From contig OZ024740.1 of assembly GCA_964016885.1 (NCBI GenBank), positions 205,902,001 to 205,966,000 on the forward strand: 64,000 nt of DNA, given 5' to 3'. Position 1 is the stretch's first letter; the number at the start of each line of letters is the position of its first letter. The position numbers and the translations under genes are program-made. Under the pieces are notes generated by a model that was given only the letters and a program-made list of their open reading frames with translations, searched no databases and was not told the origin of the DNA. This document shows positions 57,826 to 59,534 of the stretch, one piece after another. The stretch is from Eledone cirrhosa. Its lineage: Eukaryota.

Positions 57826-58071
57826 TACCTCATTTTACTAGTCTCAAGAACGCGTCTACACTTCCATTACTCATACTTCTCGCCTTCTTCACTACCTCTT
57901 CTACGGCCTCGATATGAATACCCCCTCCGCCTCCGTGGTATTTTCTTCGTGGTTATAAGAGGCTTAGCTCTGTTTCTCGACCGTTATATCGCGTGACTAT
58001 CTCCCCCTCCGCCTTTTGGGATTCTTTCTCACGTCGTGTAGACGCGTTCTTGAGACTAGTAAAATGAGGTA

Positions 58072-58159
58072 TCCTCTTGATAAGTCGGCAGACCTCGCAA
58101 GGACTCTATATCTTTGATATATTGTTTTTGTTTATGCCACGAAACTACGTAGTCGAGGA
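58072..58159 (+). ncRNA. Type I hammerhead ribozyme, U3-A8 core variant
   Basis: UCCUC-UUGAUAA-GU(C)GGCA...UGCCAC-GAAAC-UACGUA-GUC-GAGGA. Confidence 0.82.
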
Positions 58160-59534
58160 ATTTAGGAGCAGTTTAGGTATGATACATTTTATTACTAATT
58201 ATATCTAAATGTTTCTTCTCTCTTCATAATGTATTTTTAACTCTGATACTGGTTCAGTCTGGTTCAAACTGAATTGGTCTGTCCCAGTCATTCATTGAGC
58301 AACATCGGTGAAGTTGGCACCCTTAACTCACAGTTGGGTGCGGATGCATTCATGTATATATGTGTGTGTCCGCATGTATCTGTGTGTTTCTAAATATATA
58401 TATATATATATGTATATATATATATATATATATATATATATGTATATATATATATATATATATATATGTATATATATATATGTATATATATATATATATA
58501 TATATATATATATGTATATATATATATATATATATATATGTATATATATATATATATATATATGTATGTATATATATATATATATATATATATGTATATA
58601 TATATATATATATATATATGTATATATATATATGTATATATATATATATATATGTATATGTATATATATATATATGTATATATATATATATATATATATG
58701 TATATATATATATATATATGTATATATATATATATATATATGTATATATATATATATATATGTATATATATATATGTATATATGTATATATATATGTATA
58801 TATATATGTATATATATATATGTATATATATATATGTATATATATATATATATGTATATATGTATATATATATGTATATATATATATATATGTATATATG
58901 TATATATATATGTATATATATATATATATATATATGTATATATGTATATATATATATGTATATATATGTATATATGTATATATATGTATATATATATGTA
59001 TATATATATGTATATATATATGTATATATATATATATATGTATATATATATGTATATATATATGTATATATATATGTATATATATATGTATATGTATATA
59101 TATGTATATATATATGTGTATATATATGTATATATATATGTATATATATATGTATATATATATGTATATATATATGTATATATATATGTATATATATATG
59201 TATATATATATGTATATATATGTATATGTATATGTATATGTATATATGTATATATATATATGTATATATGTATATATATATATGTATATATATATATGTA
59301 TATATATATATGTATATATATATATATGTGTATATGTATATATGTATATATATATATGTGTATATATATATATGTATATATATATATGTGTATATGTATA
59401 TATGTATATATATATATGTGTATATATATATATGTGTATATATATATATGTATATATATGTATATATATATATATATATACATATGTGTGTATATATATA
59501 TATGTATATATATATACATATATATATATATAGC

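What the first reader, a model, noticed from the sequence alone, without database searches (positions are those of the whole stretch)
57861..58397. Inverted segment is circularly permuted across the unit junction, suggesting a circular or multimeric RNA template
Seen: the inverted copy starts at the complement of ~57445, runs back to the unit start, then continues into the complement of the unit end (57670 back to ~57497). No single contiguous stretch of the direct portion has this order, because the second direct copy stops at 57861. Inference: simple local DNA fold-back cannot produce it. It fits reverse transcription of a circle or concatemer with twin-priming-like inversion, and resembles the partial inverted pLTRs of Penelope insertions.
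Basis: partly seen in the sequence, partly recalled or inferred. Interest (0 to 1): 0.75.

Follow-up and report, generated by a model that had tools for sequence, protein, structure and literature searches.

The report
Ribozyme-bearing retroelement with inverted arm
This is a small non-coding jumping element that carries a predicted self-cutting RNA motif and was probably copied from a circular or repeated RNA into an AT-repeat, with one arm flipped; such elements are known, but this copy keeps an unusually clear record of how it was inserted.

Summary
Observation confirmed exactly. Inside one (AT)n microsatellite sit 1.33 direct copies of a 591-nt unit (57076-57861) and a 539-nt inverted arm (57861-58399) that crosses the unit junction, with no mismatches. 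Three unrelated neighbouring microsatellite-embedded repeats carry hammerheads too. The element is therefore best read as a non-autonomous Penelope-like element / non-LTR retrozyme. The arms are head-to-head, as described for Penelope inverted pLTRs. Together they cross the predicted cleavage site three times without an indel, so the template was a circle or an uncleaved multimer; the window cannot tell which. 'Fold-back cannot produce it' holds only without a deletion. The inverted arm ends at the loop of one of only two perfect 5-bp, 3-nt-loop hairpins in the unit. That slightly favours snap-back of a 1.64-unit cDNA plus a 175-nt one-sided deletion over twin priming. Cleavage activity, circular RNA, the mobilising enzyme and long-read support were not testable. 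New member of a known kind; a useful test case for the unsettled Penelope inversion mechanism.

The parts
56522..57075 (.). Left host (AT)n microsatellite with interspersed G on the + strand; insertion target
   Evidence: TRF; 46 G vs 1 C
57076..57666 (-). Full 591-nt unit; the inferred RNA (hammerhead) strand is minus
   Evidence: minus-strand monomer folds at z -6.61, plus strand at z -1.11
57147..57234 (-). Predicted type I hammerhead 1: 5-bp helix I, U3-A8 core, bulged helix II with long loop, 10-nt palindromic helix III, predicted cleavage after 57152
   Evidence: descriptor scans; no Rfam hit
57440..57452 (+). Natural 5-bp stem, 3-nt loop hairpin (unit 365-377); the inverted arm's inner end maps to its loop; candidate snap-back site
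57667..57861 (-). Partial second direct copy (unit 1-195)
   Evidence: 0 of 195 mismatches
57738..57825 (-). Predicted hammerhead 2, cleavage after 57743
57861..58399 (+). Inverted arm: reverse complement of unit 423-591 plus 1-370; hammerhead strand is plus; head-to-head with the direct arm
   Evidence: 0 of 539 mismatches
58072..58159 (+). Predicted hammerhead 3, cleavage after 58154
58394..58399 (.). 6-nt microhomology between unit 423-428 and the right microsatellite; one of 3 alternating-AT runs of 6 nt or more in the unit
58400..59531 (.). Right host (AT)n microsatellite, same G-on-plus polarity as the left flank
   Evidence: 87 G vs 2 C

Best explanation
A young insertion of a non-autonomous, hammerhead-bearing element (non-LTR retrozyme / Penelope pLTR derivative, 591-nt unit) into an (AT)n microsatellite. 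SHOWN: the anatomy, the hammerhead motif, the head-to-head polarity, the uninverted flanks, and three indel-free crossings of the predicted cleavage site. INFERRED: (1) the minus strand of the unit is transcribed; (2) a trans-acting Penelope-type RT/GIY-YIG protein cuts the AT-rich target and primes cDNA from the left end, 76 nt 3' of the hammerhead cut site; (3) it copies more than one unit, so the template is a ligated circle or an uncleaved multimer (about 50:50); (4) the inversion arose during integration. For step 4 I commit, at about 0.45, to snap-back: a cDNA of about 968 nt (1.64 units) folded back on the hairpin at unit 365-377, copied itself for 539 nt, and joined the right microsatellite through 6 nt of microhomology. 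The resulting long palindrome then lost 175 nt on one side of its centre. The confidence given is for steps 1-3 and the class of element.
For: Hammerhead descriptor: 10 hits in 64 kb, all 10 in four unrelated microsatellite-embedded tandem or inverted repeats, 3 of them in this element. Score 16 or more: 10 observed, none in 60 window shuffles, 0 of 3000 shuffles of the unit. Helix I differs in sequence among the four families yet pairs in each. The U3-A8 core is a described PLE variant, as are hammerhead pairs 100-700 bp apart on opposite strands (PMC4209133). The hammerhead strand folds far better than shuffles (z -6.61 linear, -5.27 circular), the other strand much less (-1.11, -1.97). Flanks keep one polarity. 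Direct-plus-inverted head-to-head structure, one-sided tails and microsatellite targeting are described PLE traits (PMC3846280, PMC8557442). An ATG lies in helix II, 21 nt before the cut site, resembling the anole Poseidon layout (26 nt), whose RT starts internally downstream of the ribozyme and prefers AT-rich DNA (PMC11167929). For snap-back: the arm's inner end falls in 8 of 591 positions at a perfect 5-bp, 3-nt-loop hairpin, energy rank 2%. The two other inverted inserts with hammerhead sequence in the window (52332-52756 complete motif; 43716-44046 3' half only) are plain fold-backs with 1-nt and 0-nt centres and the same polarity.
Against: Rfam finds no hammerhead. The motif rests on my own descriptors, written after I saw it by eye; the looser first version gave 13 chance hits in 20 shuffles. 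The 101-nt motif alone does not fold better than shuffles (z -0.93). The active fold lies 5 kcal/mol (local) and 8 kcal/mol (circle) above the minimum, so cleavage is unproven. No PLE RT or GIY-YIG ORF was found among the 26 ORFs scanned, chosen by hand from the lists; no second locus of the family is in the window. The hairpin test is post hoc and two inner ends were looked at. Snap-back needs an extra, unobserved deletion. The 591-nt unit is larger than the 170-400 nt animal retrozyme circles of PMC7229834, though within the 51-972 bp range of the 2026 preprint.
Confidence: 0.8

Rival explanations
1. Same element and RNA, but the inversion comes from two-ended (twin) priming. Both broken target ends primed cDNA on the hammerhead strand (left at unit 1 for 786 nt, right at unit 423 for 539 nt) and the two cDNA ends were joined with 1 nt of overlap.
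For: Needs no later deletion. Both arms, read inward from the flanks, have cDNA polarity. The right end has 6 nt of microhomology at a site predicted unpaired in the circle (P 0.90-0.97 against a mean of 0.39). The anole Poseidon protein cuts and extends both strands in vitro (PMC11167929).
Against: The arms overlap by 364-370 nt, which needs two RNAs or strand displacement; L1 twin-priming junctions usually overlap little (recalled). The inner end at a rare hairpin loop is then a coincidence of about 2%, or needs an RNA break in the loop. The neighbours' perfect centres fit snap-back, though two cDNAs running off one RNA 5' end would give them too. The two start sites are 169 nt apart, against 30-40 nt for described PLE tails.
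Confidence: 0.35
2. The template was a linear, uncleaved transcript of a genomic partial tandem of 1.62 units or more, not a circle. This is compatible with either inversion route.
For: For Poseidon in vitro, ribozyme mutants do not change insertion and unprocessed RNA is the main substrate (PMC11167929). Tandem donors of other families exist next door (3.46 and 2.0 units). PLE-type hammerheads cleave poorly (PMC4209133).
Against: Animal tandem hammerhead repeats accumulate as circles in coral, mussel and axolotl (PMC7229834). Perfect identity of all copies and non-integer array lengths are expected from a circle, but a young donor gives the same.
Confidence: 0.5
3. DNA-only rearrangement after insertion. 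An array of 1.64 units or more broke, folded back at the hairpin, rejoined the right microsatellite and lost 175 nt, with no link to reverse transcription.
For: Inverted repeats of 5-9 bp can drive fold-back priming at DNA breaks in yeast mutants (PMC7999016 passage). The sequence outcome is the same as snap-back during integration.
Against: All 3 of 3 inverted inserts with hammerhead sequence are head-to-head (one has only a half motif; 1 in 8 by chance), the usual PLE arrangement. Arms are identical, so there was little time. It does not explain the more-than-unit direct arm.
Confidence: 0.12
4. Assembly or sequencing artefact: a fold-back read chimera, collapse of one 591-nt period, or loss of a palindrome centre in reads.
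For: Low-complexity flanks, a 200-N gap at 48121-48320, zero mismatches between copies, and PLE tandem/inverted structures are noted as hard to assemble (PMC8557442).
Against: A fold-back chimera would invert the flank, but both flanks are G-on-plus. Similar neighbours carry arm mismatches (2 of 170, 1 of 117), as real palindromes do. Junctions fall at meaningful sites.
Confidence: 0.07

Closest known systems
Non-LTR retrozymes of animals (Cervera and de la Pena 2020, PMC7229834; Li et al. preprint 10.64898/2026.07.22.740005)
   Same: Non-coding tandem unit, one type I hammerhead per unit, low GC, strongly self-paired predicted monomer; proposed rolling-circle reverse transcription by PLE machinery.
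   Different: 591-nt unit, above the 170-400 nt circles shown there. PLE-type hammerhead (U3-A8, long loop II) rather than canonical. Inverted arm and microsatellite targeting: 'inverted' and 'microsatellite' do not occur in PMC7229834's main text and occur in the preprint only in a reference and an aside. No expression data here.
Penelope-like element insertions with direct plus inverted pLTRs and tail (Arkhipova et al. 2013, PMC3846280; Craig et al. 2021, PMC8557442)
   Same: Partial tandem plus adjacent inverted 5'-truncated copy, head-to-head; one-sided extension; hammerhead in the repeat; insertion in (TA)n with no discernible target duplication; non-autonomous head-to-tail derivatives are described for Chlamys.
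   Different: No ORF. The one-sided extension is 169 nt, not 30-40. The inverted junction is not palindromic today (175-nt offset). Naiads, the clade noted for (TA)n targeting, lack canonical hammerheads, so the partner would be another clade (Neptune, Hydra, Nematis or Poseidon; unidentified).
L1 twin-priming 5' inversions (Ostertag and Kazazian model, as summarised in PMC4245944)
   Same: 5' inversion with both target ends joined to cDNA-polarity sequence; microhomology at the second end.
   Different: No poly(A), no target duplication visible, 364-370 nt overlap between arms, more-than-unit template.

Membership tests
Non-LTR retrozyme | Tandem repeat with a type I hammerhead in at least two consecutive units | tested here: met
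   Complete motifs at 57147-57234 and 57738-57825, 591 nt apart; own descriptor, not Rfam
Non-LTR retrozyme | No protein coding, no LTR/PBS/PPT | tested here: met
   Longest ORFs confined to the element are 71-76 aa; 10 of its ORFs scanned, no Pfam hit above cut-off, best E 0.092. PBS/PPT not searched specifically
Non-LTR retrozyme | Monomer predicted to be highly self-paired | tested here: met
   z -6.61 linear (0 of 100 shuffles as good), -5.27 circular (25 shuffles)
Non-LTR retrozyme | Self-cleavage and accumulation of circular RNA | not testable with these tools
   Active fold is 5-8 kcal/mol above the minimum; palindromic helix III duplexes at -12.9 kcal/mol, which suggests dimer cleavage
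Non-LTR retrozyme | Multiple genomic loci | not testable with these tools
   Only the window was on hand; no second locus in it
Hammerhead ribozyme type I | Conserved core, three helices, UH cleavage triplet | tested here: met
   U3-A8 covariant core, G10.1-C11.1 pair, GAAA, GUC triplet, helices of 5, 6 and 2-5 pairs; variant described in PMC4209133
Hammerhead ribozyme type I | Match to a curated Rfam model | tested here: not met
   No hammerhead family listed at gathering score or at E up to 10; the long loop II may be the reason, which I did not test
Autonomous Penelope-like element | ORF with telomerase-like RT and GIY-YIG endonuclease | tested here: not met
   No such ORF in the element; it is not an autonomous PLE
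Non-autonomous PLE derivative | Partial tandem plus head-to-head inverted copy, one-sided tail, microsatellite target | tested here: met
   tail 169 nt rather than 30-40
Non-autonomous PLE derivative | Sequence similarity to the pLTR of an autonomous PLE of the same genome | not testable with these tools
   No eukaryotic DNA collection or repeat library available; no autonomous PLE recognised in the window
Non-autonomous PLE derivative | Target-site duplication | tested here: inconclusive
   Both flanks are (AT)n, so a duplication cannot be read; PMC8557442 notes the same limit

The most novel reading that the evidence does not exclude
The insert is a genomic footprint of rolling-circle reverse transcription on a ligated 591-nt hammerhead circle. 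One RT went 1.64 times round the circle, through the ligated junction twice, and the cDNA then primed its own second strand at a built-in hairpin. This window, with four unrelated hammerhead families stacked in one microsatellite cluster, would then show that retrozyme circles are the actual retrotransposition templates, and that Penelope's inverted pLTRs arise by snap-back of first-strand cDNA rather than from an antisense template. Phase and variant patterns across genomic copies would test this directly.
Probability: 0.3. Interest if true: 0.7.

Novelty: new member of a known kind. Interest (0 to 1): 0.47.

Why it matters
[quoted passage not shown] The papers I read give it as a hypothesis, and the origin of PLE tandem/inverted structures is called unresolved (PMC8557442). 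The one in vitro system favours unprocessed linear RNA. A young, mismatch-free insertion whose arms cross the ribozyme site three times, with readable priming and fold-back points, is good material for deciding between circle and multimer and between snap-back and two-ended priming, once other copies are compared. Taken alone it does not decide either question, and the class of element and its architecture are already described.

Tried and rejected
Rfam: no hammerhead at gathering score (2 tRNA-like hits only) or at E up to 10 (147 matches, mostly AT-repeat noise; 4 weak matches). Pfam on 26 hand-picked ORFs: RT domains only in three LINE ORFs, no GIY-YIG, nothing above cut-off in the repeat units. 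Protein searches: an 84-aa ORF of the 630-nt neighbour against longer proteins, 0 of 42 candidates; a possible host exon at 30079-30408, 0 of 143. A neighbouring LINE RT gave named hits in Hydractinia, Branchiostoma and Mercenaria at 48-57% identity, plus one short record labelled Herbaspirillum at 75%, so the host is probably an animal but the lineage is not fixed. My impression of an octopus-like genome is recalled and untested. The short ORF overlapping the hammerhead got no structure-library comparison. The bacterial promoter scan is irrelevant to a eukaryote and was ignored. Units of the neighbouring elements show no meaningful similarity to this unit (best E 0.012, 19 nt). The direct arm's inner end (unit 195) is at a hairpin only if a bulge is allowed (20 of 591 positions; energy rank 10%), so I give it little weight. 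Rejected: MITE or DNA transposon (no terminal inverted repeat pair of equal ends, more-than-unit arm); fold-back read chimera and chromosomal fold-back (flanks not inverted); fold-back without deletion (impossible in both registers). My attempt to count arm mismatches of the LINE fold-back at 63214-63500 failed through a wrong centre. A search for activity data on the U3-A8 core found 0 papers. One-sided deletion at palindrome centres is recalled; searches gave no direct passage for it. Genome-wide copies, raw reads and RNA data were not available; metagenome and viral collections stayed unchecked, and the prokaryotic genome collection was not used.

Full report
Observation. The region was read directly and resolved by exact matches. 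Between two (AT)n tracts lie a 591-nt unit (57076-57666), 195 nt of a second copy (57667-57861), and a 539-nt inverted arm (57861-58399) equal to the reverse complement of unit 423-591 followed by 1-370. There are 0 of 195 and 0 of 539 mismatches. In concatemer coordinates the direct arm is 1..786 and the inverted arm 423..961, so 175 nt are skipped at the centre and a single linear template must span 955-961 nt, about 1.6 units. The unit start is arbitrary, however: in the other register the inverted arm is -168..370, a copy with a 169-nt extension at its outer end. Junction overlaps are 2 nt (left), 1 nt (centre) and 6 nt (right).

The flanks. Both microsatellites carry their occasional G on the plus strand (46 G to 1 C left, 87 G to 2 C right). 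The insert therefore sits inside one uninverted tract. This rules out a fold-back read chimera or a chromosomal fold-back, which would invert the right flank.

What the unit is. By eye the minus strand of the unit holds a type I hammerhead, with a U3-A8 core in place of C3-G8, a G10.1-C11.1 pair, a bulged helix II with a long loop, a perfect 10-nt palindrome at helix III and a GUC triplet. A first descriptor gave 10 hits in the window, against 13 in 20 shuffles. A version requiring a palindromic helix III gave the same 10 hits, none of score 16 or more in 60 window shuffles, and 0 of 3000 in shuffles of the unit. Both descriptors were written after I saw the motif. All 10 hits lie in four microsatellite-embedded repeats that are unrelated in sequence: this element (3), a 457-nt array of 3.46 units (3), a 630-nt dimer (2) and an inverted pair at 52332-52756 (2). 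Rfam does not recognise the motif, and the 101-nt motif alone folds no better than shuffles (z -0.93). The whole cleavage-to-cleavage monomer does, on the hammerhead strand mainly: z -6.61 against -1.11 as a linear RNA, and -5.27 against -1.97 as a circle. The 457-nt unit gives -6.3 and -3.49, the 630-nt unit -3.26 and -2.37 (25 shuffles each). The active conformation lies 5 kcal/mol (local) and 8 kcal/mol (circle) above the minimum, so activity is not shown; the palindrome would allow dimer cleavage. The element codes for nothing recognisable.

What follows for the template. With the hammerhead strand as RNA, the two arms are joined 5' to 5' with 3' ends outward, and each arm read inward from its flank has cDNA polarity. 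The direct arm crosses the predicted cleavage site twice and the inverted arm once, without indels. A cleaved linear monomer cannot template this without exact template jumps. A ligated circle or an uncleaved multimer can. The window does not separate the two. Animal tandem hammerhead repeats accumulate as circles, and rolling-circle reverse transcription by PLE enzymes is proposed for them (PMC7229834, parts 2-4 of 6 read; PMC4209133, parts 1-2 of 4). In vitro, however, anole Poseidon uses unprocessed RNA and does not need ribozyme cleavage (PMC11167929, parts 1-2 of 4).

How the inversion arose. Fold-back is excluded only if nothing was lost afterwards. The inverted arm's inner end maps to the loop of a natural hairpin at 57440-57452. 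Only 2 perfect hairpins with a 5-bp stem and 3-nt loop exist in the unit, covering 8 of 591 positions, and the site ranks in the top 2% by DNA folding energy (post hoc, two inner ends examined). A left-primed cDNA of about 968 nt folding back there, copying 539 nt and joining the right tract at one of the 3 AT runs of 6 nt or more gives a long palindrome. Loss of 175 nt on one side of the centre gives the present sequence; such one-sided losses are recalled, not cited from a call. The two other inverted inserts with hammerhead sequence have intact centres (1 nt and 0 nt), short arms contained in long arms, 2 of 170 and 1 of 117 mismatches, and the same head-to-head polarity; one of them has only the 3' half of the motif. 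Arkhipova et al. read such palindromic junctions as self-priming (PMC3846280, abstract, passages and Discussion read). Two-ended priming needs no deletion and fits Poseidon's extension of both strands, but must explain a 364-370 nt overlap and the hairpin coincidence. I put snap-back plus deletion at about 0.45, two-ended priming at 0.35, later DNA-only rearrangement at 0.12 and artefact at 0.07.

Comparison with what is known. Partial tandems with an adjacent inverted 5'-truncated copy, one-sided tails and microsatellite targets are standard PLE traits (PMC8557442, passages and one section). The U3-A8 core and opposite-strand hammerhead pairs are reported. A 2026 preprint derives animal retrozymes from PLE pLTRs, with units of 51-972 bp (10.64898/2026.07.22.740005, parts 1-3 of 5). 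I also read passages of PMC7999016, PMC4245944, PMC7761336, PMC9977147 and 10.1101/2024.12.14.628481. No supplementary files were read; those of the hammerhead and PLE papers may list similar loci. I did not find an inverted, permuted retrozyme insertion used as evidence for template form in searches or in the term look-ups; the library lacks most subscription papers, so this is weak. The element meets the testable retrozyme criteria except a curated Rfam match and is not an autonomous PLE. Its partner enzyme, its expression and its other copies could not be checked, since only the window was available.

Verdict. A real, correctly described feature, and a new member of a known kind. Interest 0.47: not surprising as a class, but a clean entry point to an open mechanistic question.

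Noticed in passing
window 54939-56521: 457-nt unit x 3.46 in (AT)n, one difference among copies, hammerhead on the minus strand in each full unit; the right end stops inside the hammerhead. A candidate rolling-circle product.
   Followed up: partly
window 60613-61871: 630-nt unit x 2.0 in (AT)n, 2 differences between units, hammerhead with a long helix III on the minus strand; both ends at the same AT-rich site of the unit.
   Followed up: partly
window 52332-52756: Fold-back insert with a complete canonical-core hammerhead in each arm, 1-nt centre, arms of about 255 and 170 nt, 2 mismatches; abuts a 5'-truncated LINE.
   Followed up: partly
window 43716-44046: Fold-back insert in (AT)n with a perfect centre, arms 117 and about 214 nt, carrying only the 3' half of a hammerhead-like motif, same polarity.
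   Followed up: partly
window 29260-29432 and 29741-29840: Two copies (83% identical) of an older family with a minimal-hammerhead-like motif seen by eye on the plus strand, not picked up by the descriptors; shared 3' end, different 5' truncation.
   Followed up: partly
window 59533-59738, relatives at 23981-24079, 33181-33232, 5575-5605: Another microsatellite-embedded family, twice found as a fold-back palindrome; has a GAAA-helix-GUC stretch but no recognised core. Unexplained.
   Followed up: partly
window (AT)n tracts sampled between 43000 and 62050: All 9 tracts counted have more G than C on the plus strand (8 strongly, one 38 to 21), and four hammerhead elements have their long arm in the same orientation relative to this polarity, while the 43.7-kb one is opposite. 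May reflect oriented targeting.
   Followed up: no
window 62052-64000: LINE (RTE-like by recall) copy with its 3' part on the minus strand, a 288-nt fold-back palindrome at 63214-63500 (96.5% identity) and its 5' part on the plus strand: looks like a twin-primed inversion with a snap-back at the junction.
   Followed up: partly
window 16071-16378, 28928-29158, 12485-12601: Further palindromes of 117-309 nt; 28928-29158 is TA-flanked and MITE-like, 16071-16378 holds a tRNA-like stretch seen by eye.
   Followed up: no
window 60135-60467, with copies at 3055-3410, 8769-9102, 16755-17134, 36343-36681: tRNA-derived SINE-like family (Rfam tRNA hits at 60140 and 3333), 82-96% identical copies.
   Followed up: no
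window 48331-51546 and 52746-54737: Two LINEs with long RT ORFs (621 and 529 aa; Pfam RVT_1); the first has a frameshift near 49700-49800 between its endonuclease-like and RT parts; the second has a PHD-like finger and a (TGA)n tail.
   Followed up: partly
window 29962-30501: 180-aa open frame with a signal-peptide-like stretch and a dibasic site, possibly a host exon; no Pfam hit, and no homologue among longer proteins.
   Followed up: partly
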